Assembly: GCA_029288895.1 (NCBI GenBank)
Contig: JARIGK010000001.1
Span: 1,446 to 65,445 of the forward strand
Length of the DNA stretch: 64,000 nucleotides
Source: Candidatus Adlerbacteria bacterium
GTDB lineage: Bacteria; Patescibacteriota; Minisyncoccia; Phycocordibacterales; SBAW01
Reading direction: 5' to 3'
Below the pieces are notes generated by a model. That model was not told where the DNA came from. It did no database searches and worked only from the letters and a program-made list of their open reading frames with translations. Position numbers and translations under genes: made by a program. Below are positions 13,274-64,000 of the stretch, piece by piece. How positions within the stretch are numbered: position 1 is the stretch's first letter; each line of letters starts with the position of its first letter.

Positions 13274-15076
13274 ATGCAGCAGGATCCGCAGAAAGTTACA
13301 TACATTGCACAAACAAACTCGCGCGGCAAAGCGATGCCGTTTGGTATTAAGCGCCGCGACCGCGAGCGCCACATGTATATCATCGGCAAGACGGGCATGG
13401 GTAAATCAACCTTGCTCGAGAACATGGCCATCCAGGATATCCGCAACGGCGAGGGTATGGCCTTTATCGACCCGCACGGCTCCACGGCAGACCGCTTGCT
13501 TGAATATGTACCAGAACACCGGATCAAAGACGTGGTGTACTTTGCGCCGTTCGATATGGACCACCCTGTGGCCTTTAACGTCATGGAAGACGTGGGCTAC
13601 GACAAGCGCCACTTAGTTGTCTCGGGGTTGCTTTCTGCGTTTAAAAAATTGTGGGTGGATGCATTTAGCGCCCGCATGGAGTACATCTTGTCCAACACAT
13701 TGTTGGCGCTTTTGGAGTACCCAGGCGCAACACTTCTGGATGTGAACCGCATGCTCGTCAACAAAAACTTCCGCAAAAAAGTTGTTGAGAATATCAGCGA
13801 TCCAGTTGTGAAGGCATTTTGGGCAGAAGAATTTGCAAACTACACCGACCGCTATACGCAAGAAGCGACGCCGGCAATTCAAAACAAAATCGGCCAGTTC
13901 ACGAGCAACCCTCTGATTCGCAACATTGTGGGGCAGCCCAAGTCGTCGTTCGACATACGCCAGCTGATGGATGAGAAAAAAATCATCATCATGAACCTCT
14001 CGAAGGGGCGCGTGGGCGAAGTAAATGCAAACCTGCTTGGCTCGATGCTCGTCACCAAAATTTATTTGGCAGCGATGTCGCGCGCCGATGTGCCGGCACG
14101 CACGCTTACTGAGCTTCCGTCATTCTACTTTTACGTCGACGAATTCCAGAACTTTGCGAACGAAAGCTTTGCCGACATTTTGTCGGAGGCTCGTAAATAT
14201 AAATTGAATCTCATCATCGCGCACCAATATATAGAACAGATGGAAGAAGAGGTGCGCAACGCCGTGTTCGGCAACGTTGGTACGACGGTGGCCTTCCGTG
14301 TGGGGCCCTTTGATGCCGAGGTGCTCGAGACCATCTTCCAGCCGCAGTTTAGCCAGTCGGACTTGGTGAACTTGGGGTTTGCGCAGGTGTATATGACGCT
14401 CATGATTGACGGCGTTGGTTCGCCGCCGTTTTCGGCAACGACAATGGCGCCGTTTGACCAGCCGCCTGCAAAATTTGTTGAACAAGTTATAGAAAGCTCG
14501 CGCTCGCAGTTTGCCAAGAGACGCCAGGATGTCGAAAAAGCGCTTGTAGAGTGGAGCGAGCCCGACAGCATGGTTCAGAAAAAAGCTCCAGCTCCAGCGG
14601 CACAGAAACCAGTTTCTCCCGAGCCTGCGCGAAACTTTTCGACCGGTGCTGCCGCGCCTACCAACGTTTCGGCTAAGCCTATTTCTGCTTCGCCCAAACA
14701 CGACGTGTCGCGGATGCCGAAGCAGAATTTTGCCGCGGTTCCCCAGAACCGATCGGAAAATTCTGCGCAGGCTTCGTCCACACCTATGAAGCCAAAGGCG
14801 CCAGAGAGGCCGCCGATAGAAGGTGCAACCAGTTTGAAAGAAGCACTTCTGCAGGCGCAAGCGCACGCAAAAAAACCAGACGAAAAGCCAGAGCAGCACG
14901 CAGTCGTTCGAGAGCCACAGATGCCGGCCGCACAACAACCCTCTTCAAACAATTATCAACCAACGCTTAAAGAAGCGCTTGGCAAAATAGTAGGGGACAA
15001 AACTCCTACATCAATGCCTGCAGAGACGCTCCGCGATATGCTTCGCGTCGATGAACCAGGTAAAACAGCTCAGTAA
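13274..15076 (+). CDS. TraG/TraD/VirD4-like type IV secretion coupling-ATPase-family protein, soluble, with a Pro/Ala/Gln/Lys-rich disordered C-terminal tail
   Basis: Walker A IIGKTGMGKST and Walker B FYFYVDEFQNF. The central region is typical of the T4SS DNA-binding-domain ATPases annotated in CPR genomes. There are no N-terminal TM helices. The last 190 aa or so are low-complexity. Confidence 0.7.
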   Translation: MQQDPQKVTYIAQTNSRGKAMPFGIKRRDRERHMYIIGKTGMGKSTLLENMAIQDIRNGEGMAFIDPHGSTADRLLEYVPEHRIKDVVYFAPFDMDHPVAFNVMEDVGYDKRHLVVSGLLSAFKKLWVDAFSARMEYILSNTLLALLEYPGATLLDVNRMLVNKNFRKKVVENISDPVVKAFWAEEFANYTDRYTQEATPAIQNKIGQFTSNPLIRNIVGQPKSSFDIRQLMDEKKIIIMNLSKGRVGEVNANLLGSMLVTKIYLAAMSRADVPARTLTELPSFYFYVDEFQNFANESFADILSEARKYKLNLIIAHQYIEQMEEEVRNAVFGNVGTTVAFRVGPFDAEVLETIFQPQFSQSDLVNLGFAQVYMTLMIDGVGSPPFSATTMAPFDQPPAKFVEQVIESSRSQFAKRRQDVEKALVEWSEPDSMVQKKAPAPAAQKPVSPEPARNFSTGAAAPTNVSAKPISASPKHDVSRMPKQNFAAVPQNRSENSAQASSTPMKPKAPERPPIEGATSLKEALLQAQAHAKKPDEKPEQHAVVREPQMPAAQQPSSNNYQPTLKEALGKIVGDKTPTSMPAETLRDMLRVDEPGKTAQ

Positions 15077-48728: not shown

Positions 48729-48905
48729 AAACTTTTTTAGAAAAAAGTTATCCACAGAAAAAAAATAATTTTCATTGTATCTACAATTTATTTTCGTGAT
48801 ACTTACAACAGAGCATCGAGATTGCTCTTGAAATTTCCGCGGAGGTTTCTTGAAGCAAGGTCGGTCGATGTCCAAAACAATTTGCGACGAAAGTTGCACA
48901 CAATT

Positions 48906-54829: not shown

Positions 54830-56179
54830 ATGAGCGAATATCGGCCTACGATAGGCTTGGAAATCCATGCCGAACTCTCGACGCGCACAAAGATGTTTTG
54901 CGCGTGCCTAAACGACGCCGACGAGAAGCGCCCTAACACCAACATCTGCCCGGTATGTATGGCACACCCGGGCTCATTGCCCGTGATCAACAAAGAGGCG
55001 GTGCGCCATGTGCTCCGCGTAGGGAAGGCCTTGGGTGCAAAACTCGCCGACTATACCGAGTTCGACCGCAAGAACTATTTTTACCCAGATATTCCAAAGG
55101 GCTATCAGTTGAGCCAGTTTGCATTTCCATTGGTAAGCGGCGGCTCGCTTCGCAACGTCGACATCACACGCGTCCACTTGGAAGAGGACACAGCGCGCTC
55201 GCAACACGAGGGCAATGCAAGCCTTGTCGACTATAACCGCGCAGGTGTGCCTTTGATGGAGCTTGTAACGGAACCTGTCGTGCACACAGCCGAAGATGCT
55301 GGCGCCTTTGCAAAAGAACTGCAACTCTTACTGCGCTCACTTCGCGCAGGGGAGGCAAACATGGAAAAGGGCGAGATGCGCGTCGAGGCAAACATTTCAG
55401 TAAGTAAAACCGACACCTTTGGTACAAAGGTGGAAGTGAAGAACTTGAACTCCTTCCGCAGCGTCGAGCGTGCAATTGCGTACGAAGTTAAGCGCCAGAT
55501 CGAAGTGCTCGAAAGCGGCGGCACCGTTGTGCAAGAGACCCGTGGCTGGGACGAAGCAAAGCAGCAGACCTTCTCGCAGCGCAAGAAAGAAAGTAGCCAC
55601 GACTACCGCTACTTCCCAGACCCAGATTTGCCAAAACTTACACTTTCCGAGATCTCGGAATTCAAAGATCTAGAATTGCCAGAACTTCCGTGGCAGAAGC
55701 GTGCACGCTTAGCCGAGCTCGGCTTCTTGCAAACACAAGATATCGAACAGCTCATCGGAGACGAAAAGTTGGGTGCCTTGTTTGCACAGATGGAGGATGA
55801 TCTCGGCTCGCCCGAGCTTTTGAAAGTTGCAGCAAACTTTATCTTGAACGATATCGCTGGCCAGCGTAAAAAGGATGCGATGTGGATGCCAACTCCGGCA
55901 CTCCTCAAACAGGTGGTTGAACAGTATGCGGCGGGCACACTTGCGTCGCCGCAAGCAAAGCAATCTATCCTCACGGGCACACTTGTCGTTGCTGGCGATG
56001 CGAGCGCCTTGCCAGAACTCGTGCAAAAAATCATCGCGGCACACCCGGGGCCTGTAGCCGAGTACAAAGCAGGGAAGGAATCGACCCTCCAGTTTTTGGT
56101 AGGCATGGGTATGCGCGAAAGCAAAGGTTCGGCAAACCCGTCGGCGCTTGCTGAGGAATTTAAAAAGGCGCTTCTCTAG
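54830..56179 (+). CDS. gatB: Asp-tRNA(Asn)/Glu-tRNA(Gln) amidotransferase subunit B
   Basis: IGLEIHAELSTRTKMFCAC...ICPVCMAHPGSLPV and the remainder of the GatB signature. Confidence 0.95.
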   Translation: MSEYRPTIGLEIHAELSTRTKMFCACLNDADEKRPNTNICPVCMAHPGSLPVINKEAVRHVLRVGKALGAKLADYTEFDRKNYFYPDIPKGYQLSQFAFPLVSGGSLRNVDITRVHLEEDTARSQHEGNASLVDYNRAGVPLMELVTEPVVHTAEDAGAFAKELQLLLRSLRAGEANMEKGEMRVEANISVSKTDTFGTKVEVKNLNSFRSVERAIAYEVKRQIEVLESGGTVVQETRGWDEAKQQTFSQRKKESSHDYRYFPDPDLPKLTLSEISEFKDLELPELPWQKRARLAELGFLQTQDIEQLIGDEKLGALFAQMEDDLGSPELLKVAANFILNDIAGQRKKDAMWMPTPALLKQVVEQYAAGTLASPQAKQSILTGTLVVAGDASALPELVQKIIAAHPGPVAEYKAGKESTLQFLVGMGMRESKGSANPSALAEEFKKALL

Positions 56180-56197
56180 AGATACACGCTTGCACTC

Positions 56198-56231
56198 TAC
56201 ACATCCCGCCCATGGCGGGATTTTTGTTTGC
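56198..56231 (+). terminator. Rho-independent terminator
   Basis: cccgcccatggcggg followed by atttttgtttg, downstream of gatB. Confidence 0.7.
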
Positions 56232-56247
56232 CGATATACTGTATGCA

Positions 56248-57057
56248 ATGGACGAACTAGAAATCTCGGGTAAGCGATACATCTCGTCTAAGCGTATCGC
56301 CAAGGAAAATAAGTACCACCCCGACTATATGGGCCAGCTTATCCGTGCCGGCCGCGTCGCGGGCACGAAGGTGGGCCGGGCCTGGTACGTGGAGGAACAG
56401 TCCTTCCTCGACTACCTCGGCAAAGAGAGAGGGCCACAGGTTGTAACCGAGCCCGCTCTGGTAGCCGCAAGCAATGTTGTCGATGCAGGGGCTCCGCAGG
56501 GCGACGGCCCGAGGACTGAGCAGATTCCTAGCAAGGAATCTGTGTACCCGGAATCGACACACGTTGCTGAAGTTTTTGTTCCGGCTGAAGTTTCTGTTCC
56601 AGCTGAAGTGCACGTGCCAATCGTCGAAGAGAAAATTTTTATTCCAGAAATAAAAAAAGAAGAACCAAAAAAAGAAGAGCCGAAGGTGGCGCCAATTATG
56701 CGCAAGCCGACACTCACATATATTTCTGACTCAAGCCCACTCTTCCCTGAAATCTCTAAACGTCCAATAGTAAAAAAACAATTTGTTTCTCCTGCCCCTG
56801 CAGCAGCGCCTGTTCAAACAATAGCCGCTGCAGTTGAGATACATCCACAGATTGTAGAGAAGAAGGGTGGCTTGGTACGCAAAACGTTTGCAATCGCATC
56901 ACTCACCTTGGCGGCAGTAGCAATATTTTCTGTAGCATTTTTTGGCTCGCTTGATGTTAATACCACTGTCTTGGTAGAGCAGGGCAAACCTGCAAGCGTT
57001 GCGTTTTCGCAAAATAAAACATTGTGCTTCATTTTTGGAACATGTCAAAACGACTAA
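56248..57057 (+). CDS. membrane protein with an N-terminal HTH-like (excisionase/MerR-like) module, Pro/Glu/Lys-rich linker and C-terminal TM segment
   Basis: The start was moved past the terminator hairpin to MDELEISGKRYISSKRIAKENKYHPDYMGQLIRAGRVAGTKVGRAWYVEEQSF. Repetitive PAEVxVP and KKEEPKKEEPK linker. C-terminal hydrophobic FAIASLTLAAVAIFSVAFFG. Confidence 0.6.
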   Translation: MDELEISGKRYISSKRIAKENKYHPDYMGQLIRAGRVAGTKVGRAWYVEEQSFLDYLGKERGPQVVTEPALVAASNVVDAGAPQGDGPRTEQIPSKESVYPESTHVAEVFVPAEVSVPAEVHVPIVEEKIFIPEIKKEEPKKEEPKVAPIMRKPTLTYISDSSPLFPEISKRPIVKKQFVSPAPAAAPVQTIAAAVEIHPQIVEKKGGLVRKTFAIASLTLAAVAIFSVAFFGSLDVNTTVLVEQGKPASVAFSQNKTLCFIFGTCQND

Positions 57058-57098
57058 TGTAGAGAAAATAAGCGGAGAAAATACCATCAAATAAATTA

Positions 57099-57133
57099 TC
57101 CCCCGGACAATATGGTCCGGGGGATTTTTTGTT
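57099..57133 (+). terminator. Rho-independent terminator
   Basis: tcccccggac-aatat-gtccggggga followed by ttttttgtt. Confidence 0.8.
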
Positions 57134-57449
57134 CCGAGATATGGCTCTGCTAGGCGAGATCTCGGCACGGCAAGACGATAAAACTATAATTTGCAATGTA
57201 GAAAATTTACAAAAATCTCGTCACAAAATGAGATGAAAGTTGAAATAAAAATGCAAAATAATTTTTTATATGAGCCATGAGTCGCATGTTGAAAATAAAT
57301 TTGTCTAGCAACGTTTTAATGAATTTTTGTTTGCATTTCTATCCACAGATTTTTGTGAAATTTTACTGAAGAAAAGCGCATTTGTTTCGTAAAATATATT
57401 GTAGTGCTCTCCTCGAAATCACTGCATAAACAAAAGCATTATCGGACCT
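57134..57449 (+). promoter_or_regulatory. AT-rich (about 30% GC) leader/promoter region upstream of the giant surface-protein gene
   Basis: A sharp composition drop relative to flanking coding DNA. It contains several TTG...TAnAAT-like hexamers (for example ttgcat...tgtgaaat). No single confident -35/-10 pair was identified. Confidence 0.35.
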
Positions 57450-60400
57450 ATGTCACCTAATAAAAAAATACTCGACACACATGGTGACCCGATGCTTTCC
57501 GCACGCAAGGCGGCACTCCGTTTGCGTTGCGCATCCGACTACGTTTCGAAGCTTTGCCGCGAGGGTAAACTCGACGGCCAGCTCGTGGACGGGCAGTGGT
57601 TTGTAGCCCCAGCTTCTATCAAGGCTTTTGAAGAAGCTCGTATCCGTGCGAAGCAAGAACGTTCGCAGCAGCTTGCAGAACAGCGCCGCAAGGAGAATTT
57701 TGAATATAAAAAAACATATGGTTCGTTTGGTACGCGCACATTGTTGCGAGCACGCGCACTCGCTGTCAGTGCGCCTATAGGTGCGATTGCGGGTGGTGCG
57801 ATGTTGTTCGGTGCAGTTGTCTTTGCGTCGACGATGCATACGCCGGCGCATTCGCAGCTTGCGTCTGTGTCTTCCGCAGAGTCGGCATTTTTCGGCACAC
57901 AACCTCCGGCAGTACATGTCTCGGGTGCAGCATTTGAAAATGCATCGAACTTTTTGCGCGGCACATTTGCAACTTTGTTTGGTTCGTCAAAAAACAACAC
58001 AATTGAACTCGCGCAGAATTCAAGCCCGTCTCAACGCGGAGAATTGTCTGCTGACAATTCTCCTATGTCCGGCGCCGTCGCGCCTGCCAACGTTTCGACT
58101 GGGCTTAATTCTGCTTCAGCACCTGTCGTCCAGAACATCACGAACACATACCCTGTCATCCAGCGCACGGTGGTGCAGCAGGTTGCATCTGCGGGCGTGA
58201 GCGAAGACTACGTCACGCTGCGCCTCCAGGACCTCTACAACCGCATCGCGGTCCAGCTCTCGAACCTGCAGAACCCGGGCCGCGAAAGCCCGCTGCAAAA
58301 CTTTGCAGTGTCACAGGTCATTAACAACCTTTCCAACGTGCGCCTTAATGGGCTCTCAACCGCAGATGATATCAACGCGCACACGATCAACAGCGGCAGC
58401 CTTTCTATCACAGGTGATGCATCGTTTGGCGGGACAAACAATTTCAATACGGTACATATCGCCGGCATACTTACTGCGGCGACCACCACTACGGGTGCGT
58501 TGACCGTCAACGGTAATGCAACAACCACGGGCGTTGCGTACTTCCAGAATGATGTAAATATCGGCGGCAATACGGTCATCGCAGGCAACCTTACAGTGCT
58601 CAACAATAACGGCAACCCAGGTACTGCATTTGCTGGTACCACCACCGTAACGAACCTTGGTGTAACCAACCTTTCGACCTCGACGTTTGCAGGCTCACTC
58701 CAGACAGGTGGCGCGCTTGCGGTAGGCGGTAATCAATACAGCGGTTTTAAGCTCAGCGTAAATGGTTTGGCATACATCGGCGACCCAGCTGCACCGTACC
58801 CAGGCCTTGTTCCTGGCGACGAGATGGAAGCGCAGCTTGTTATCCGCCGCGATGCGAACCCCGCAACGATGGTGTTGCGCAATATGAATGCATTGACTGA
58901 TGCGGCAGATATCATTTCGTTTGCAAACAGCAGTGACGACCAGGACGGCAAACTGCAGCTCAACGGCGTAGCTGCAACAAGTTTGAGCGGCAGCCGCTCG
59001 TTTAACATCATGTCGAACTTTGGTGACATTGGGTTTTGGCGCAATTACTCAGGCGCAGGTACGCCGACCAACTCGTTGACCATCAAGGGCGCAAGCGCAG
59101 GTACAACGGCAGGATTTGTTGGCATCGGTACGCAAAGCCCACAGGCAAAACTCGACGTGCGCGACCAGATCTTTGTTCGCAACACCGATGGTCTTGTCGG
59201 CACCAATGACGGCGTAGAAATTGCAACCGACTCAAGCGTGCCGCGCATAAGCATCGTGGCGGGTAACCGCTACGTTGGCCTCTTTGGCGGAACTGCATCG
59301 GGTGATGTGCTTGTTCAAAATTCGGCAGGCGGCTCGACGATTTTTAAGGGCGGGTCGGGCGGCAATGTCGAACTTGCACGCATCACCAACGATGGAAATT
59401 TTGGCCTTGGCACTGCGAATCCAAATTACAAACTTTCGATAGAGAATGGTTCGGCCCCGGGCGCATCGTTCCCAACGAGCGGCTTCGGCTTTGTCCTTTC
59501 TGGCACTGGGTTTGCAAATGCAAACAATCGCTTTGCGTCGGTAGAAGGCAACAAGGCAACCTACTTCCTCACGCGCGACACAGGGGTCTCGACCGGTGAA
59601 CTTTCGACCTACGACTATGGTGCAGGAGTTGGGATGCCACTTCTGTTGAACGCAAACGGAGGAAATGTTTCCATTGGCTCTGCGACTGTTGCACAATCGA
59701 CCCTCGATGTGTTTGGTTCACTTGCTCTTGGAAGTTATGCAGGTGTAAACGCTGCACCAACAAACGGGTTTATTGTGAGCGGCAATGTTGGCATCGGCAC
59801 GACGACGCCAGCTACAACGTTCGCGGTGCAAGGCAACGGCCTTGTTTCGGGCACGTTTACTGCAGGCAGCATCATTGCAACATCAAGCTTTACGCTTAAT
59901 GGCTCGGGCACGATCAATGGCGGGTTTGCTGCGTACGCATCATCAACTATCGGCAACGGCAACCAAAACGGCGGCCTCACTATCTTCGGTGGCGCAACGA
60001 CGACGGGCAATGCATTGTTTACTGGCGGTGTTGGGATTGGCGTCGCAACCTCGGCCGCTGGCACATTGCAGGTTGCAAACAACGCCTACTTTGGCGGCAA
60101 CTTGTTTGTTGGCGGCAACTCCACAACCATCGGCAATAGCACATCCAACAGCTTGGTCATTAATTCGAGCATCAAGTCCGACCTTGTACCCGACCAGAAC
60201 ATCACCCGCGACTTGGGCTCGCCATCGTTCTACTGGCGCAATGTGTATGTCGGCAACATCGTTGCAAATAATATCTCCGCTGCATCGACTACAATTTCTG
60301 GTACCAACTCGGCAACGTTTACTATCAACGCAGACAACGTCACATCGGACACTGAAGATCAGGATCTTATCTTCTTCCGCGGCAACGTGGTGCCAAATGC

Positions 60401-63400
60401 GTTACTTTCGTGGAAAACTACGCCAAAGCGTTTTGAATTTAACCAGCCATTGTTTATCCAAAACAACACAAACAACACGCTCGGCAACACGACGCTCGAT
60501 TTGAAGGGCGAAACAGGGCAAACGGGAGCACTCTTTAACGTTGCGTCATCGACCGGTACAAGTTACTTCAATATCGCAAACACAGGCCTAACAACCCTTG
60601 CGCAAGGGTTTATCTCGCAGGCCTCATCGACGGTCAACGGTTCTCTCACCGTCAACGGCAGCGCAATAACAAACGGCACTATCACTGCAAGCAACATTAT
60701 CGCGACTTCAACATTGACGGTTAACGGCCTTGCTATTTTCTCTAACGGCATCTCGCTTACCTCATCAACAACCATTGGCAACGGTAATCAAAACGGAGGT
60801 CTGACGATCTTTGGTGGCGCAACGACGACGGGTAATGCGCTGTTTTCAGGCGCGTTGACTGCTGCTGGCAACTCGCTGTTTTCAAACGCAACCTCGACAA
60901 ACTTCTTCTCGACTACCGCATCAAGCACAAATCTATTTGCAGCAAATGCATCGTTTGGTACCGCAGCGGCGCAGTATCTTACAACAACTGCTGGTGCAAA
61001 TATCGACAACTACATCACGCTTGGGAAGAATATTTTCGGCGCTGGTGGCCATGGTGACTTTGACGGCGGTATACGTTTTAACGACACTGGCACAAATATC
61101 CCGCGCGGTATTACCTCGGCAAGCAATGGCACCGCGATGGCGATTGGCATTAATGGCAATAACTTTGGTTCTCAGGCTCTTTCCAATCAAGGCGTGCAAA
61201 TGTATTTTGACGCACGCGGACCGTATGGACGCTTTGATGTGTACACCTATGAAGCAGGCACTGGGGCAGAGAATGCTCCTATTTCGCTTTCGAGCGTTAA
61301 CACGTTGAATATTGGTGACGGCGCCCCAACCAATTCGCAGGTGGCAACGCTCTACGTTAAAGACAACACGAGCCTTGCTTCGGTGCCAACGTTCCGTATC
61401 GATCAAAACGGAAATGGTACAAGCGATTTGATGCAATGGTTTACAAGCGGCGGCGTACAGTTGGGTGCAATAAAGGCAAATGGCAACCTTGGTATTGGAA
61501 CATCGACTGCATCGCAAGCTCTCTCCGTCCAAGGCAACGGCCTCTTCTCAGGAAACATTTCTGCAGCTGCGATTACTGCAACATCGACCTTGAATGTCAC
61601 AGGTCTTTCGTCATTCTTTAACGGTATTCTTGCAACTGCATCTTCAACAATTGGCAACGGCAATCAAAACGGCGGCCTCACTATTAACGGCGGCGCAACA
61701 ACGACAGGCAGCGCATACTTTGCATCCAATGTCGGCATCGGCACGGCGAACCCAGGTTACACGCTCGATGTGAACGGCAGCTTCCATGCCAACAGCATGT
61801 TTTTGACTGGTGGCGGCAATTCGCTGAGCTTCGGCACTTCGAATGCAAACGCACGAATCACTGGCGATAACGCATCATCGGCAAACTACCTCGACTTTTA
61901 CACCGAAGGCTTCTCTCGATTACATATTTCGGATAACGGCAACGTTGGCATCGGTACAACAACCCCATCACAACTCTTCGCAGTGCAGGGTAATCAGTAC
62001 ACCTCCGGCACTGCCTTCTTCGGCGGCGCAATTACCGCAACATCGACATTGAATGTCACCGGCCTCTCAACGCTCGGTTCACTTTCAGTCACAGGTAACA
62101 CCACGCTCGCTAACGCAACATCGACGAACTTCTTCTCGACGGTTGCGTCGTCAACAAACTTGTTCGCACAAACAGGTTCTATCGGTACACTCAATGCGCA
62201 AGCACTGACGGTGTCTGGAAATACCACCCACACTGGCACACTCACTCAAACAGGTCTTGCAACCTTCACAAACGGCTTTGTGTCGCAGGCATCGTCAACC
62301 GTCAGTGGCGGCCTCTTTACTGCAAACGGTGGAGCATCAACCACAGTACTTTCTGCAAGTGGCAGCGCATACTTTGCAACTTCAGGCGGTAACGTGGGTA
62401 TTGGGCAAAACTCACCGAAAGAAAAACTTGATTCCAATGGAGCTGGAATTTTTAGCGGAGATTTCGCCACCGGTATAAATGCAGAAAATTACGCGGCGGC
62501 TGTGCTTATTTCCACAAATAGTGGTGCAACTACAGGCAGAATTAGTGCTGCTTCAAACGGAGCAAACAACGTAGATTTGGAACTCCGCGCCCTGAACGCA
62601 GGGTCTTCAAATAGTGGGCAATTATATCTTAAATCAAACGGCAATGTTGGTATCGGTACAACATCGCCGTTCTATAAACTTTCTGTCGAAGGTAGCTCGA
62701 CATTAGGCAATCAGGCAATCGCGGGCTTCTTTAATGCAACATCGACAACCGCAACATCAACATTCTCAGGAGGTCTCACTGTCGGCGGCAGCAACTTCAA
62801 CGTCACACCAAACGGTAATGTCGGCATTGGCGCCGCAACAGACGGCAGCTTCCCATTTGAAGTCAGCAACGCAGGTGGTTCTTTCGCACAATTTACCCGC
62901 TCAAGTGTGGGGACATGGATATTGGGTATGACAGGAAGCTTTGGGGCGAGCGCAGGAAGCTATCATGACAATGGAGATTTCCAGATAGCTGGAAGTGGTA
63001 CCGTTGCCGGCCAAGGTTTGATTATACAGACTCGCAACACAGGTAATAGTTTAATAAACGCTCTCTATCTGAACGGTTCGGGAGCTGTTGGCATCGGAAC
63101 CACAACAACAAACGTAAGTCAGAGCGGCTTGCTCACGGTCAATGCAAATCCATCAACATATTTGCCAAATGCATTTGTTGTGAGCTCGACAACAGCTGCG
63201 GGTGTGACAAGCAACCTCTTCAATGTATTAGCAAACGGCACTGTTGGTGTCGGTACATCGTCACCTGCAACAACTCTTTCAGTGCAGGGAAATGGGTACT
63301 TTACTGGCAACGTCGGCGTCGGCCTCTCGAGCCCAACCGCATTGCTTGAAGTGGCCGGTAATGCAAACTCTTCTGACTTCCGTGTAAGCCGCATAGGCAA

Positions 63401-64000
63401 TGCCTCATCATATTTCTCGATTGCTGCAACGGGTGGCAACAACAATGCCTCGGTATTTGGCGTTAACGGAACATCCGTGCTTGCTCTTCAGTTAAACGGT
63501 GGCATCCAAGTGGGCAGCTATGTGAACATTTCAAACACGCTTGTTGCAGCTCCTGCAAACGGTCTTATCATGGCGGGAAGCTTGGGCATCGGTACAACGT
63601 CTCCAAACTCCGCACTTCAAATTGCAGGTGTGGGCCAGACAACGGCAAATATGACTGACAGCGGCGTACAGACCGCAACGCTCAATATTGAAGACAATAA
63701 CGCATCAAATCCAGCTGGTGCCGGCGGCGCACTTGTCTTTTCATCAGCGGCAACTGCGGGGACTTATGCGCAGGCTGCAATTAAAGCGCTTATCACAAAT
63801 GGTGGCGGTAGAGGCATCGGCGACCTTGCGTTCTCGACACGTAACGCAACAAGCGATACAAACCTTACTGAGCGTTTGCGCATTACAGCGGGAGGTAACA
63901 TCGGCATCGGTACGACATCGCCATACGCAACGTTTGCAGTAAACGGAAATTCTGACTTGGGCACCAGCGCAACAGCTGGCTACTTCACTGCAACCTCAAC
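57450..64000 (+). CDS. giant repetitive Gly/Asn/Thr/Ser-rich cell-surface protein, 5' partial (at least 2183 codons, continues beyond the window)
   Basis: Frame 0 (positions 3n) has a TAG at 57402-57404 and the first ATG at 57450, then no stop codon through position 64000. This was checked codon-by-codon and confirmed at checkpoints 57780, 58020, 60000 and 63000. Product: N-terminal HTH-like module (MSPNKKILDTHGDPMLSARKAALRLRCASDYVSKLCREGKLDGQLVDGQWFVAPASIKAF), one TM helix (ALAVSAPIGAIAGGAMLFGAVVFA), then repeats such as GNVGIGTTSP, IGNGNQNGGLTIFGGATTTGNA and ATSTNFFSTxASSTNLFA, reminiscent of tail-fibre and beta-helical adhesin repeats. The ORF track does not list it because no stop codon occurs in the window. 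Confidence 0.85.
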   Translation, partial: MSPNKKILDTHGDPMLSARKAALRLRCASDYVSKLCREGKLDGQLVDGQWFVAPASIKAFEEARIRAKQERSQQLAEQRRKENFEYKKTYGSFGTRTLLRARALAVSAPIGAIAGGAMLFGAVVFASTMHTPAHSQLASVSSAESAFFGTQPPAVHVSGAAFENASNFLRGTFATLFGSSKNNTIELAQNSSPSQRGELSADNSPMSGAVAPANVSTGLNSASAPVVQNITNTYPVIQRTVVQQVASAGVSEDYVTLRLQDLYNRIAVQLSNLQNPGRESPLQNFAVSQVINNLSNVRLNGLSTADDINAHTINSGSLSITGDASFGGTNNFNTVHIAGILTAATTTTGALTVNGNATTTGVAYFQNDVNIGGNTVIAGNLTVLNNNGNPGTAFAGTTTVTNLGVTNLSTSTFAGSLQTGGALAVGGNQYSGFKLSVNGLAYIGDPAAPYPGLVPGDEMEAQLVIRRDANPATMVLRNMNALTDAADIISFANSSDDQDGKLQLNGVAATSLSGSRSFNIMSNFGDIGFWRNYSGAGTPTNSLTIKGASAGTTAGFVGIGTQSPQAKLDVRDQIFVRNTDGLVGTNDGVEIATDSSVPRISIVAGNRYVGLFGGTASGDVLVQNSAGGSTIFKGGSGGNVELARITNDGNFGLGTANPNYKLSIENGSAPGASFPTSGFGFVLSGTGFANANNRFASVEGNKATYFLTRDTGVSTGELSTYDYGAGVGMPLLLNANGGNVSIGSATVAQSTLDVFGSLALGSYAGVNAAPTNGFIVSGNVGIGTTTPATTFAVQGNGLVSGTFTAGSIIATSSFTLNGSGTINGGFAAYASSTIGNGNQNGGLTIFGGATTTGNALFTGGVGIGVATSAAGTLQVANNAYFGGNLFVGGNSTTIGNSTSNSLVINSSIKSDLVPDQNITRDLGSPSFYWRNVYVGNIVANNISAASTTISGTNSATFTINADNVTSDTEDQDLIFFRGNVVPNALLSWKTTPKRFEFNQPLFIQNNTNNTLGNTTLDLKGETGQTGALFNVASSTGTSYFNIANTGLTTLAQGFISQASSTVNGSLTVNGSAITNGTITASNIIATSTLTVNGLAIFSNGISLTSSTTIGNGNQNGGLTIFGGATTTGNALFSGALTAAGNSLFSNATSTNFFSTTASSTNLFAANASFGTAAAQYLTTTAGANIDNYITLGKNIFGAGGHGDFDGGIRFNDTGTNIPRGITSASNGTAMAIGINGNNFGSQALSNQGVQMYFDARGPYGRFDVYTYEAGTGAENAPISLSSVNTLNIGDGAPTNSQVATLYVKDNTSLASVPTFRIDQNGNGTSDLMQWFTSGGVQLGAIKANGNLGIGTSTASQALSVQGNGLFSGNISAAAITATSTLNVTGLSSFFNGILATASSTIGNGNQNGGLTINGGATTTGSAYFASNVGIGTANPGYTLDVNGSFHANSMFLTGGGNSLSFGTSNANARITGDNASSANYLDFYTEGFSRLHISDNGNVGIGTTTPSQLFAVQGNQYTSGTAFFGGAITATSTLNVTGLSTLGSLSVTGNTTLANATSTNFFSTVASSTNLFAQTGSIGTLNAQALTVSGNTTHTGTLTQTGLATFTNGFVSQASSTVSGGLFTANGGASTTVLSASGSAYFATSGGNVGIGQNSPKEKLDSNGAGIFSGDFATGINAENYAAAVLISTNSGATTGRISAASNGANNVDLELRALNAGSSNSGQLYLKSNGNVGIGTTSPFYKLSVEGSSTLGNQAIAGFFNATSTTATSTFSGGLTVGGSNFNVTPNGNVGIGAATDGSFPFEVSNAGGSFAQFTRSSVGTWILGMTGSFGASAGSYHDNGDFQIAGSGTVAGQGLIIQTRNTGNSLINALYLNGSGAVGIGTTTTNVSQSGLLTVNANPSTYLPNAFVVSSTTAAGVTSNLFNVLANGTVGVGTSSPATTLSVQGNGYFTGNVGVGLSSPTALLEVAGNANSSDFRVSRIGNASSYFSIAATGGNNNASVFGVNGTSVLALQLNGGIQVGSYVNISNTLVAAPANGLIMAGSLGIGTTSPNSALQIAGVGQTTANMTDSGVQTATLNIEDNNASNPAGAGGALVFSSAATAGTYAQAAIKALITNGGGRGIGDLAFSTRNATSDTNLTERLRITAGGNIGIGTTSPYATFAVNGNSDLGTSATAGYFTATS
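59948..61716 (+). repeat. three copies of a roughly 66-nt intragenic repeat spaced about 830-880 nt apart, reflecting an approximately 280-aa module duplication inside the giant gene
   Basis: The repeat core attggcaacggcaa(c/t)caaaacgg(c/a)gg(c/t)ct...ggcgcaac(g/a)acgac(g/a)gg encodes IGNGNQNGGLTI(F/N)GGATTTG. Copies lie at about 59948-60013, 60774-60839 and 61651-61716. A second repeat, acatcgac(g/a)aacttcttctcgac...aa(a/c)(c/t)t(a/g)tt(t/c)gca, lies at about 60890-60945 and 62117-62170. Confidence 0.8.

What the first reader, a model, noticed from the sequence alone, without database searches (positions are those of the whole stretch)
57450..64000. Hidden giant ORF: a highly repetitive surface protein of at least 2183 codons with an N-terminal HTH-like cytoplasmic module, absent from the ORF track
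A single reading frame is open from the first ATG at 57450 to the end of the window, 6551 nt with no stop. The supplied ORF track shows only short opposite-strand and off-frame shadow ORFs here. The predicted product has an N-terminal module of about 60 aa that looks like an excisionase/MerR-type HTH, then one TM helix. After that comes more than 2000 aa dominated by Gly, Asn, Thr and Ser, with recurring motifs: NVGIGTTSP, IGNGNQNGGLTIFGGATTTGNA and ATSTNFFSTVASSTNLFA. These resemble repeats in phage tail fibres, beta-helical adhesins and giant cell-surface proteins of episymbiotic CPR bacteria. Its position right after a large glycan-biosynthesis island suggests it could be the major surface or S-layer-like protein, or an adhesin, and a glycosylation substrate. 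The architecture, a cytoplasmic DNA-binding-like head on a giant extracellular fibre, is unusual.
Basis: seen in the sequence. Interest (0 to 1): 0.85.

Follow-up and report, generated by a model that had tools for sequence, protein, structure and literature searches.

The report
Membrane-anchored giant tail-fibre-like surface protein
The open frame is a real gene for a 3103-residue, phage-tail-fibre-like surface fibre of an ultrasmall (Patescibacteria/CPR) bacterium. It is held in the membrane by a conserved, DNA-binding-type domain on the cytoplasmic side, an anchoring design that is widespread in these bacteria and that I did not find described.

Summary
The frame from 57450 to 64000 (+) has 2183 codons and no stop. 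It is identical to the first 2183 residues of a 3103-aa database protein, P0035.

Anatomy:
- A winged helix-turn-helix of the excisionase/MerR type at aa 15-64. The AF2 model has block-mean pLDDT 94-98 over aa 11-90, and its best PDB matches are BldC, Xis, TraN and RacA.
- A long basic helix, then one transmembrane segment at aa 103-127 with an N-in topology.
- A conserved juxtamembrane stem.
- About 2800 aa of divergent fibre modules. Their model matches Bdellovibrio MAT trimeric fibres (Foldseek E 1e-6) and phage tail fibres.

The gene sits in a conserved housekeeping neighbourhood (MurB-SecA-Obg-GatB) in at least nine Patescibacteria contigs. In distant relatives the HTH-TM anchor and the fibre are separate adjacent genes. 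A profile of the N-terminus finds 7391 cluster representatives, many of them 2000-5800 aa long.

Best reading: a membrane-anchored, probably trimeric, mosaic adhesin fibre. What the cytoplasmic HTH binds (DNA or a protein partner) is unresolved. The S-layer and glycosylation ideas have no support. It is a new variant of a known kind.

The parts
57450..64000 (+). Giant ORF. The first 2183 of 3103 codons are in the window, and the frame runs off the window end.
   Evidence: The prefix is identical to P0035.
57492..57641 (+). Cytoplasmic winged HTH (aa 15-64) of the excisionase/MerR (HTH_17) type. The family motif is RLxCAPDYVSKLCREGKL...WFV...SI..FE.
   Evidence: Pfam. AF2 block-mean pLDDT 97-98 over aa 11-80. 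Foldseek matches to BldC, Xis, TraN, RacA and RdfS with TM-score (target-normalised) 0.58-0.84. Invariant residues.
57609..57764 (+). One long, strongly basic alpha-helix (aa 54-105; 13 K/R vs 6 D/E) that links the HTH to the membrane.
57756..57830 (+). Single transmembrane segment (aa 103-127), N-in/C-out. It ends in V-F-A|S, a possible signal peptidase I site.
   Evidence: Hydropathy. Positive-inside rule, 4 vs 0 K/R. The same pattern holds in 16 giant homologues.
57861..57983 (+). Conserved extracellular juxtamembrane element: 'A.laQ.ESPFFG' followed by 'F..xFAxLFG' (aa 138-178).
   Evidence: Alignments.
58140..58352 (+). Conserved stem after a Pro/Ser-rich linker: 'NTYPVIxRTV...G-V(S/T)..L..L..L.N.....Q.I..L.N' (aa 231-301).
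58353..63998 (+). Fibre shaft. It is built of divergent modules of about 50-150 aa punctuated by G-N-V-G-I-G-T-x-x-P...L.V motifs, plus IGNGNQNGGLTI.GGATTTG and ATSTNFFST.ASSTNLFA elements.
   Evidence: PHROGs tail-fibre families, E 1.9e-13 and 9.4e-13. PDB sequence hit to Bd2133.
63222..63998 (+). The two modules that were modelled (aa 1925-2183). The better-predicted C-terminal module is a beta-rich fold matching MAT and tail-fibre beta-helix domains.
   Evidence: AF2 pLDDT 72.8 overall, block means 63-95 for model residues 111-240 (about protein aa 2035-2164). Foldseek PDB: the top 14 hits are all Bdellovibrio MAT fibres, E down to 1.1e-6. BFVD: 125 hits at E <= 1e-3.
56212..57057 (+). Partner gene (281 aa): a paralogous HTH module, a Pro/Glu/Lys-rich linker of about 150 aa, one TM segment (aa 226-246), and an extracellular tail of about 35 aa. 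It lies immediately upstream of the giant gene in all syntenic loci.
   Evidence: hmmsearch E 2.6e-11, with the same gene present in L002-L006, L008 and L009. hhalign probability 96%, E 2e-9.
57098..57133 (+). Intrinsic-terminator-like hairpin plus T-run that ends the partner gene. The giant gene therefore probably has its own promoter.
57162..57190 (+). Promoter-like TCGGCA-17-TATAAT. It overlaps the conserved CGAGAT(A/C)TCGG element.
   Evidence: consensus match only.
57340..57348 (+). Conserved TATCCACAG box (DnaA-box-like), 110 nt upstream of the ATG.
   Evidence: Present at -108 to -137 in 7 of 7 syntenic loci and also in L009 and L010.

Best explanation
The gene encodes a type-II (N-in, C-out) single-pass membrane protein of a Paceibacteria/Adlerbacteria-like Patescibacterium. 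Its roughly 2970 extracellular residues form a long, probably trimeric, phage-tail-fibre-like shaft of the same structural class as the Bdellovibrio MAT fibres. The shaft is built of divergent beta-helix modules and ends in a lineage-variable tip. Its most likely role is adhesion to, or recognition of, a host cell or surface.

The fibre is rooted in the membrane by a conserved base: one (two in some relatives) cytoplasmic winged HTH, a basic helix, a TM segment and a conserved juxtamembrane stem. A small paralogous HTH-TM protein encoded immediately upstream is a constant partner.

Shown here:
- the ORF and its full length;
- the HTH fold class and the single hydrophobic segment with positive-inside charge;
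- the homology of the modules to trimeric fibres;
- the conserved synteny and the conserved gene pair;
- the existence of split (anchor + fibre) versions;
- the size of the family.

Inferred:
- Trimer state, surface display and adhesion.
- The role of the HTH. I take it to be a common cytoplasmic docking module that ties the fibre base to a conserved ligand. I put DNA/nucleoid at about 0.4, a conserved cytoplasmic protein (RodZ-like) at about 0.4, and other at about 0.2.
For: ORF and identity with the 3103-aa P0035.

HTH:
- Pfam HTH_17 hits 10 of 11 members and passes the cut-off in homologues.
- The AF2 model has strand-helix-helix-hairpin with block-mean pLDDT 97-98 over aa 11-80.
- The Foldseek top hits are all MerR/excisionase-type DNA binders, with rmsd 1.3-2.1 A over about 50 residues for the best ones.

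Topology: one hydrophobic segment; K/R 4 before vs 0 after; the same in 16 giants.

Fibre:
- PHROGs tail-fibre families, E 1.9e-13 and 9.4e-13, rising to 7e-19 and 4e-18 on the full length.
- The module model matches Bd1334, Bd3182, Bd2439 and Bd2133 (E 1e-6 to 6e-3) and then T5 pb1.
- It also matches 125 viral proteins, mostly tail-fibre, S74-chaperone or C1q proteins.
- Module homologues carry Peptidase_S74, C1q and YadA_stalk.
- The homologue P0027, which has the same base, has Gp34_trimer at E 3.8e-21, plus C1q and Bact_surface_Ig-like.
- MAT fibres are trimeric, surface-displayed mosaic adhesins (PMC10769870).

Family and context:
- Seven genome loci, all Patescibacteria, share MurB-SecA-Obg-GatB-small HTH-TM-giant.
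- The profile search finds 7391 representatives, about 20 of the top 150 being at least 1500 aa.
- L011 and L013 have the anchor and a signal-peptide fibre as adjacent separate genes at the same locus position.
- No relative was found in viral contigs.
Against: - Trimerisation was not modelled; only a monomer was predicted. The first module of that model is poor (block-mean pLDDT 46-55 over model residues 51-110).
- No experimental evidence of expression or surface location was available.
- Pfam and NCBIfam give nothing significant for the 3103-aa protein itself.
- The wing of the HTH lacks the basic residues usual in HTH_17. It reads G-Q-W-F-V rather than the R-W-R-like consensus (read from the sequence against the Pfam consensus as I recall it).
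- The recognition helix is almost invariant across thousands of proteins. This fits a single conserved ligand better than diverse operator sites.
- The conserved (V/A)-(F/Y)-A|(S/G) at the TM end could be a signal-peptidase site. Cleavage there would detach the fibre from the HTH.
- The split fibres of L011 and L013 share only motif-level similarity with this protein (E 5e-5).
Confidence: 0.72

Rival explanations
1. Membrane-tethered DNA-binding signalling protein. The fibre senses contact. The cytoplasmic HTH, three copies per trimer, either acts on DNA while tethered (ToxR/CadC-like) or is released by regulated proteolysis (Notch- or RsgI-like). The conserved upstream boxes are possible targets. 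This view is compatible with the adhesin reading; it rivals only the 'passive anchor' reading.
For: - The fold matches only DNA-binding proteins.
- The HTH has a net charge of +3, and the adjoining helix has 13 K/R vs 6 D/E.
- Tandem HTH copies occur in relatives, as in TraN.
- Conserved non-coding boxes lie upstream of the gene and of secA.
- A conserved juxtamembrane element could be a processing site.
Against: - The recognition helix is the same in thousands of paralogues and orthologues.
- The wing is not basic.
- The TATCCACA box is absent from L001/L007, L011 and L013, which also encode the module.
- No protease or release site has been shown.
Confidence: 0.2
2. RodZ-like coupling. The HTH is a protein-protein docking module that binds a conserved cytoplasmic partner (cytoskeleton, division or secretion machinery) in order to place or assemble fibres. 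It does not bind DNA.
For: - The HTH-TM-ectodomain layout is that of RodZ, whose HTH binds MreB (my knowledge).
- The extreme conservation of the helix DY(V/I)(S/G)(K/Q)LCREGK across the family implies one common ligand.
- The partner gene carries the same module on a flexible linker of about 150 aa.
- There is conserved linkage to secA.
Against: All structural neighbours are DNA binders. No candidate partner has been identified. There is no RodZ-type HTH_25 or DUF4115 signal.
Confidence: 0.3
3. The first 127 residues or so are an extra-long cleavable leader. Signal peptidase I cuts after V-F-A(127) and the fibre is released or re-attached by other means. The HTH only delays or targets export.
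For: - There is a conserved small-x-Ala pattern at the outer end of the hydrophobic segment in most giants.
- The split versions use an ordinary signal peptide for the fibre.
Against: - The hydrophobic stretch of about 25 residues is long for a signal-peptide h-region.
- A 100-aa folded n-region would be unprecedented.
- The conserved juxtamembrane stem right after the TM segment suggests a retained base.
- No cleavage predictor was available.
Confidence: 0.15
4. It is the S-layer or major envelope protein and a substrate of the nearby glycan island.
For: A glycan-synthesis island lies at about 16-47.7 kb. The protein is rich in Thr, Ser and Asn.
Against: - No SLH or other S-layer domain was found.
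- Fibre modules and mosaic tips are typical of adhesins.
- Six housekeeping genes separate the gene from the island.
- Sequons are not enriched.
- Orthologue sizes and tips vary widely (2139 to more than 3749 codons).
Confidence: 0.05
5. It is a prophage or tailocin tail-fibre gene, not a cellular surface protein.
For: Homology to tail fibres. HTH_17 domains are common in phages.
Against: - It sits in a conserved housekeeping neighbourhood in at least nine contigs.
- There are no phage genes nearby.
- It has an N-terminal TM anchor.
- No relative was found in 2.9 million viral contigs, although the scan used a narrow pattern.
Confidence: 0.03

Closest known systems
Bdellovibrio bacteriovorus MAT (mosaic adhesive trimer) fibres: Bd1334, Bd2133, Bd2439, Bd3182 (PMC10769870)
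   Same: The beta-helix fibre modules carry the GN(L/V)G(L/I)GT..P...L.V motif and are the best structural matches. Both are long surface fibres of a bacterium that lives on other bacteria. Both have a conserved base and swapped, mosaic tips across the family.
   Different: MAT proteins are about 1000 aa and are exported with a signal peptide. Their conserved N-terminal domain has no PDB homologue and is presumed to bind an unknown surface element. Here the protein is 3103 aa and its N-terminus is a cytoplasmic wHTH plus a TM anchor. No S74 chaperone is present in this member.
Phage tail fibres with an S74 intramolecular chaperone or C1q heads, T4 gp34, and T5 pb1
   Same: They share module fold and motifs. 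Family members carry Gp34_trimer, C1q and S74-like C-termini.
   Different: This is a cellular chromosomal gene in a housekeeping context. The protein is membrane-anchored rather than attached to a virion, and it is far longer.
RodZ (cytoplasmic HTH, one TM segment, periplasmic domain)
   Same: The overall topology is the same. RodZ is a precedent for an HTH that binds a protein (MreB) rather than DNA (my knowledge).
   Different: RodZ has an XRE-type HTH_25 and a DUF4115 ectodomain. Neither was detected here.
RacA, BldC, Xis, TraN (pIP501) and RdfS: small MerR/excisionase-type wHTH DNA binders
   Same: They are the best fold matches to aa 15-64. RacA also has a long helical extension and tethers DNA to the envelope (my knowledge). 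TraN has two tandem wHTH folds, as some relatives here do.
   Different: All of them are soluble. None is fused to a TM segment or an extracellular domain.
ToxR, TcpP and CadC membrane-bound transcription factors
   Same: They have a cytoplasmic DNA-binding domain, one TM segment and an outside sensor.
   Different: Their wHTH is of the OmpR/PhoB type, and their outside domains are small.
Trimeric autotransporter adhesins (the name JGI gives to the homologue P0055)
   Same: They are long trimeric adhesin fibres. A YadA_stalk hit occurs in one module homologue.
   Different: TAAs are anchored by a C-terminal outer-membrane beta-barrel. No such domain was detected here, and the anchor is N-terminal.

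Membership tests
Pfam HTH_17 / excisionase-MerR winged HTH | Sequence match at or above the Pfam gathering score (27 bits) | tested here: inconclusive
   The window protein scores 18 bits, E 0.0035, covering profile positions 1-50 of 51. Ten of 11 family N-termini hit, best E 8.5e-7. The homologues P0027 (31.2 bits) and P0109 (36.1 bits) pass the cut-off.
Pfam HTH_17 / excisionase-MerR winged HTH | Fold: helix-turn-helix followed by a beta-hairpin wing | tested here: met
   AF2 gives H18-25, H29-38, E43-46 and E49-52 with block-mean pLDDT 97-98. Foldseek matches BldC, Xis, TraN, RacA and RdfS with probability 0.96-1.0 and TM-score (target-normalised) up to 0.84.
Pfam HTH_17 / excisionase-MerR winged HTH | Binds DNA | not testable with these tools
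   Only indirect evidence: positive charge and a non-basic wing (read from the sequence).
MAT / tail-fibre-type trimeric beta-helix fibres | Beta-helix fibre module fold | tested here: met
   The top 14 Foldseek PDB hits are all MAT fibres, E 1.1e-6 to 7e-2. phmmer hit to Bd2133, E 0.0084. BFVD tail fibres.
MAT / tail-fibre-type trimeric beta-helix fibres | Homotrimer | not testable with these tools
   Only a monomer was predicted. Indirect support comes from homologues and module relatives that carry Gp34_trimer, C1q and S74.
MAT / tail-fibre-type trimeric beta-helix fibres | Conserved MAT N-terminal domain, exported via a signal peptide, with no PDB homologue | tested here: not met
   The N-terminus here is a wHTH with clear PDB homologues, followed by a TM anchor.
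MAT / tail-fibre-type trimeric beta-helix fibres | Mosaic, exchangeable C-terminal tips on a conserved base | tested here: met
   Giants with the same base end in different domains: LVIVD, Gly-rich, S74-like, C1q, Ig-like, or the P0035/P0088-specific tip.
Trimeric autotransporter adhesin | C-terminal YadA-type membrane anchor | tested here: not met
   No Pfam hit at E <= 0.01 on the full-length P0035.
S-layer protein | SLH or another known S-layer anchoring or lattice domain | tested here: not met
   No such Pfam or NCBIfam hit.
RodZ | HTH_25 (XRE) plus a DUF4115 ectodomain | tested here: not met
   Not among the Pfam hits.

The most novel reading that the evidence does not exclude
The wHTH-helix-TM module is a Patescibacteria-wide device. 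It physically couples tail-fibre-like host-contact fibres, whether fused or separately encoded, to the nucleoid or to gene expression. Pulling on the fibre or cleaving it at the conserved juxtamembrane stem would then signal host contact to the DNA of a cell with very few classical regulators. This would be a bacterial analogue of Notch, RsgI or adhesion-GPCR mechanosignalling.
Probability: 0.12. Interest if true: 0.9.

Novelty: new variant of a known kind. Interest (0 to 1): 0.66.

Why it matters
How ultrasmall episymbiotic Patescibacteria recognise and hold on to hosts is largely unknown beyond type IV pili. Tn-seq in Saccharibacteria points to 'multiple adhesins' without a mechanism (PMC10633639, PMC11665869).

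This locus defines a large, conserved family of giant tail-fibre-like surface proteins that is annotated only generically, and it gives the family a testable anatomy:
- a conserved cytoplasmic HTH base;
- a constant small partner protein;
- fused and split forms;
- mosaic tips.

It also suggests where to look for the still-unidentified anchoring partner of MAT-type fibres. Finally, it raises a concrete question that biochemistry can answer: does a DNA-binding-type domain tie a surface fibre to the nucleoid, to a cytoplasmic hub, or to nothing?

Tried and rejected
- Exact-sequence contig look-ups for the 281-aa neighbour and for P0035 found nothing on record. I therefore could not fetch the DNA beyond the window. 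The 3' end is known only from the P0035 protein.
- DNA tandem repeats: none of any size.
- Profile of the N-terminus against PDB sequences: no hit. NCBIfam: no hit for the window protein. Pfam on the full-length P0035: no hit at E <= 0.01. PDB sequence search with the C-terminal tip of P0035: only weak, probably spurious FtsZ hits.
- The word-index homologue searches returned only short or truncated proteins. The giants appeared only in the exhaustive profile search.
- The afdb50 fold library was unavailable.
- Viral contig scan: nothing found.
- Rfam: only two tRNAs in the window, and nothing in the 5' region of the gene.
- Literature: no paper in the library links HTH_17/PF12728 with Patescibacteria or describes HTH-anchored fibres.
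- I considered and rejected an oriC reading of the AT-rich 392-nt upstream region. It has a DnaA-like box, and the GC skew changes sign at about 58 kb. However, there is only one box per intergenic region, and the skew change coincides with the Thr/Ala/Ser-rich coding sequence.
- I considered a link between the conserved Cys27/Cys36 pair and redox or metal binding. Cys27 is replaced by Tyr, Phe or Leu in distant members while Cys36 stays, so these are more likely core positions.
- Glycosylation sequon enrichment: none.

Full report
**1. The observation**

Translating window 57450-64000 (+) gives 2183 codons without a stop. The nearest upstream in-frame stop is at 57402, and the first ATG is the one at 57450. 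With stops at 3/64 per random codon, such a run has a chance probability of about 1e-45 (my arithmetic). The ORF tool does not list ORFs that run off an end of the source, which is why the frame is missing from the ORF list. Over this stretch the list holds only shorter ORFs in other frames and on the opposite strand. The 2183 residues are identical to the start of P0035, a 3103-aa protein from an NCBI contig of 219 kb. The gene is therefore real, and the window holds about 70% of it.

The repeats are divergent protein modules of 30-56% identity. They are not DNA tandem repeats.

**2. Context and organism**

The window is cellular chromosome. A glycan-synthesis island lies at about 16-47.7 kb. 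It holds GT4 and GT2 glycosyltransferases, an MBOAT acyltransferase, a sugar C-methyltransferase, a carbamoyltransferase, a flippase and a Wzy_C-TPR protein. It is followed by MurB, SecA, DsbD, Obg, GatB, a 281-aa gene, and then the giant gene.

A scan of one genome per species with the N-terminal alignment found seven loci, all in Patescibacteria MAGs (Adlerbacteria, Minisyncoccia, 'Patescibacteria group', and some labelled Saccharibacteria). Six of the seven share the order (MurB-)SecA-Obg-GatB-small gene-giant gene. The seventh, the Adlerbacteria contig L007 (= L001), carries the homologue in a different neighbourhood. Named cluster members are from Candidatus Paceibacterota and Adlerbacteria.

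The orthologous frames vary in length:
- L003: 2139 codons, complete.
- L002: 2884 codons, then an in-frame TAA, then at least 768 more codons.
- L006: at least 3097 codons.
- L008: at least 3749 codons.

Nanopore-type assemblies (L001/L007, L009, L010) show the same gene broken by frameshifts.

**3. The N-terminal base**

Pfam HTH_17 matches aa 15-64 over the whole profile but below threshold (18 bits against a cut-off of 27). At family level the match is solid. Ten of 11 N-termini hit, with a best E of 8.5e-7, and homologues exceed the cut-off.

An AF2 model built on 24 sequences has block-mean pLDDT 94-98 for residues 11-90. It shows strand, helix 18-25, helix 29-38 and hairpin 43-52. These are followed by one uninterrupted helix, 54-105, and a helix at 117-129. 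Foldseek places the domain with BldC, mycobacteriophage Xis, TraN of pIP501, RacA and RdfS. For the best of these the rmsd is 1.3-2.1 A over about 50 residues, and the target-normalised TM-score reaches 0.84.

The hydrophobic segment, aa 103-127, is the only one in the protein. It has 4 K/R in the 15 residues before it and none after. Sixteen giant homologues show the same pattern. The N-terminus is therefore a folded cytoplasmic domain, not an ordinary signal peptide.

The module is the most conserved part of the protein. The invariant residues are D30, Y31, V32, L35, C36, R37, G43, W50, V52 and S56, and the motif is RLxCAPDYVSKLCREGKL. In L003, L008 and many giants it is duplicated in tandem.

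Beyond the membrane the family shares three further elements:
- an 'LAQxESPFFG ... FxxxFAFLFG' element;
- a Pro-rich linker;
- an 'NTYPVIERTVE ... L..L..L.N' stem.

One caveat applies. The outer end of the TM segment reads (V/A)-(F/Y)-A followed by S or G in most members, so signal-peptidase cleavage cannot be excluded.

**4. The shaft**

PHROGs assigns two tail-fibre families, at E 1.9e-13 and 9.4e-13 for the window part and 7e-19 and 4e-18 for the full length. The only PDB sequence hit at E below 0.01 is Bd2133, a Bdellovibrio MAT fibre. The alignment runs over the GN(L/V)G(L/I)GT..P...L.V modules, which lie in the trimeric beta-helix region of that structure.

An AF2 model of aa 1925-2183, built on 57 sequences, has pLDDT 72.8. 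The second module is well predicted and the first is poor. Its Foldseek results are:
- PDB: the top 14 hits are all MAT fibres (Bd1334, Bd3182, Bd2439, Bd2133; E 1.1e-6 to 7e-2), followed by the T5 L-shaped tail fibre.
- BFVD: 125 viral proteins at E <= 1e-3. The best are tail-fibre-like proteins with S74 intramolecular chaperones or C1q heads.

Sequence homologues of the module carry Peptidase_S74, C1q or YadA_stalk. P0027, which has the same base and stem, has a T4 Gp34 trimerisation domain (E 3.8e-21), C1q and a C-terminal Ig-like domain.

Across the giants the tips differ. They include LVIVD propeller repeats, Gly-rich domains, S74-like ends, Ig-like ends, and the P0035/P0088-specific tip. 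This is the 'conserved base, mosaic tip' logic described for MAT fibres.

The trimer state itself was not modelled and remains an inference. If packing resembles Bd2133, which spans about 145 A per 370 residues, the shaft would be of the order of 100 nm. That figure is an extrapolation.

**5.

(a) The 281-aa gene immediately upstream (56212-57057) has the same HTH module (hmmsearch E 2.6e-11; hhalign probability 96%, E 2e-9). The module is followed by a Pro/Glu/Lys-rich linker, one TM segment and a short outside tail. This gene precedes the giant gene in L002-L006, L008 and L009, so the two form a conserved pair. A terminator-like hairpin separates them.

(b) In more distant relatives (L011/L012 and L013) the same locus reads SecA-...-Obg-GatB-small HTH-TM, followed by two separate genes. 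The first encodes an HTH-helix-TM protein of 232-236 aa. The second encodes a large fibre protein with its own classical signal peptide and GNVGIGT modules. Anchor and fibre thus occur fused or split at the same position, which argues that they work together. The split fibres share only motif-level similarity with the window protein.

(c) A profile of the N-terminus finds 7391 cluster representatives at E <= 1e-3 and 4811 at E <= 1e-10. About 20 of the top 150 are at least 1500 aa, the longest being 5777 aa. There is also a large class of proteins of about 300-400 aa with two HTH copies. No relative was found in viral contigs.

**6. Mechanism**

The best-supported reading is a membrane-rooted, probably trimeric, tail-fibre-like adhesin with an exchangeable tip. 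It would be used by an ultrasmall bacterium to bind a host or a surface.

What the cytoplasmic HTH binds is open.
- For DNA: every structural neighbour is a DNA binder. The domain and the adjoining helix are basic. Tandem copies recall TraN, BldC and Xis.
- For a protein ligand: the recognition helix is nearly invariant across thousands of proteins. The wing lacks the usual basic residues. RodZ shows that an HTH-TM protein can use its HTH to bind a cytoskeletal protein (my knowledge).

I rate these at about 0.4 each. A signalling version, in which contact sensing is relayed to DNA, is the most novel reading that is not excluded.

**7. Regulatory DNA (noticed, partly followed up)**

The 390-690-nt upstream regions are AT-rich (27-34% GC). 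They share TATCCACA(G) at -108 to -137 from the ATG in all seven syntenic sequences and in L009 and L010. The same box, there a perfect TTATCCACA, sits upstream of secA in the window (48749) and in L002, L003, L005, L006 and L008. CGAGAT(A/C)TCG elements recur at -280 to -500 and overlap a promoter-like site. The box matches the DnaA-box consensus (my knowledge). There is only one box per intergenic region, so I do not read this as an origin of replication. It suggests that secA and the giant gene are co-regulated by an unknown factor.

**8. Comparison and novelty**

The shaft is a member of the MAT/tail-fibre structural class. The N-terminal base differs from the MAT N-domain and from every anchoring mode I know of: signal peptide with a surface receptor, LPXTG, SLH, or the TAA barrel.

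Databases name these proteins only generically, as 'helix-turn-helix domain-containing', 'immunoglobulin-like domain-containing' or 'trimeric autotransporter adhesin'. The literature searches found no description of them. I therefore rate this a new variant of a known kind. The S-layer and glycosylation ideas are unsupported.

Noticed in passing
window 56212-57057 (+): A small 281-aa protein with the same HTH module, a Pro/Glu/Lys-rich linker, one TM segment and a short outside tail with two Cys. It always lies directly upstream of the giant gene in syntenic loci, forming a conserved gene pair.
   Followed up: yes
window 57340-57348 and 48749-48757 (+); L002 9891 and 1920; L003 7817 and 62; L005 9893 and 335; L006 9864 and 1904; L008 9865 and 2405; L004 9877; L009 9896; L010 458: A DnaA-box-like TATCCACA(G) is conserved at a fixed distance upstream of the giant gene and also upstream of secA (as TTATCCACA). 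It is absent from L001/L007, L011 and L013. It may be a shared regulatory site for secA and the fibre gene.
   Followed up: partly
window 57131-57168; the equivalent -280 to -500 regions of L002, L003, L004, L006 and L008: Repeated CGAGAT(A/C)TCG(G) elements, partly palindromic, lie in the far-upstream region. In the window one overlaps a promoter-like TCGGCA-17-TATAAT.
   Followed up: partly
L011 4787-8662; L013 4681-8714: A split architecture at the same locus position: a small HTH-TM gene, then a 232-236-aa HTH-helix-TM protein with an 'SFSDPV.V...PVF...Y.YVLVPV' ectodomain, then a separate fibre gene of at least 649 aa with a classical signal peptide and an 'INYQGKLTD' N-domain.
   Followed up: yes
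L003 7906-14322; L008 9956-21202; P0027, P0028, P0030, P0032, P0055, P0069: Two tandem copies of the HTH module precede the TM segment in many relatives. A large class of proteins of about 300-400 aa with two HTH copies also exists.
   Followed up: partly
L002 18596-18598: The orthologous giant frame is interrupted by a single in-frame TAA and then continues open for at least 768 codons. This could be a sequencing error, a pseudogene, two genes, or read-through. It was not resolved.
   Followed up: no
L001 1-16689 (Adlerbacteria contig_72594): A cluster of several very large fibre-like genes surrounds the HTH-anchored homologue. They include a 3594-aa Gly_rich_2 protein and two Bact_surface_Ig-like proteins. 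The contig has many frameshifts.
   Followed up: no
window 13274-15076 (+): A VirD4/TrwB-like type IV secretion coupling protein lies just upstream of the glycan island.
   Followed up: no
window about 56000-64000: Cumulative GC skew rises across 1-58 kb and turns negative inside the giant gene. This is probably a codon-composition effect of the Thr/Ala/Ser-rich ORF rather than a replication landmark.
   Followed up: no
P0035 aa 27, 36, 2829, 2834 (window aa 27 and 36 = nt 57528-57530 and 57555-57557): The 3103-aa protein has only four cysteines. Two are in the HTH and are conserved among close relatives. The other two form a C-x4-C pair near the tip, also present in P0088.
   Followed up: partly
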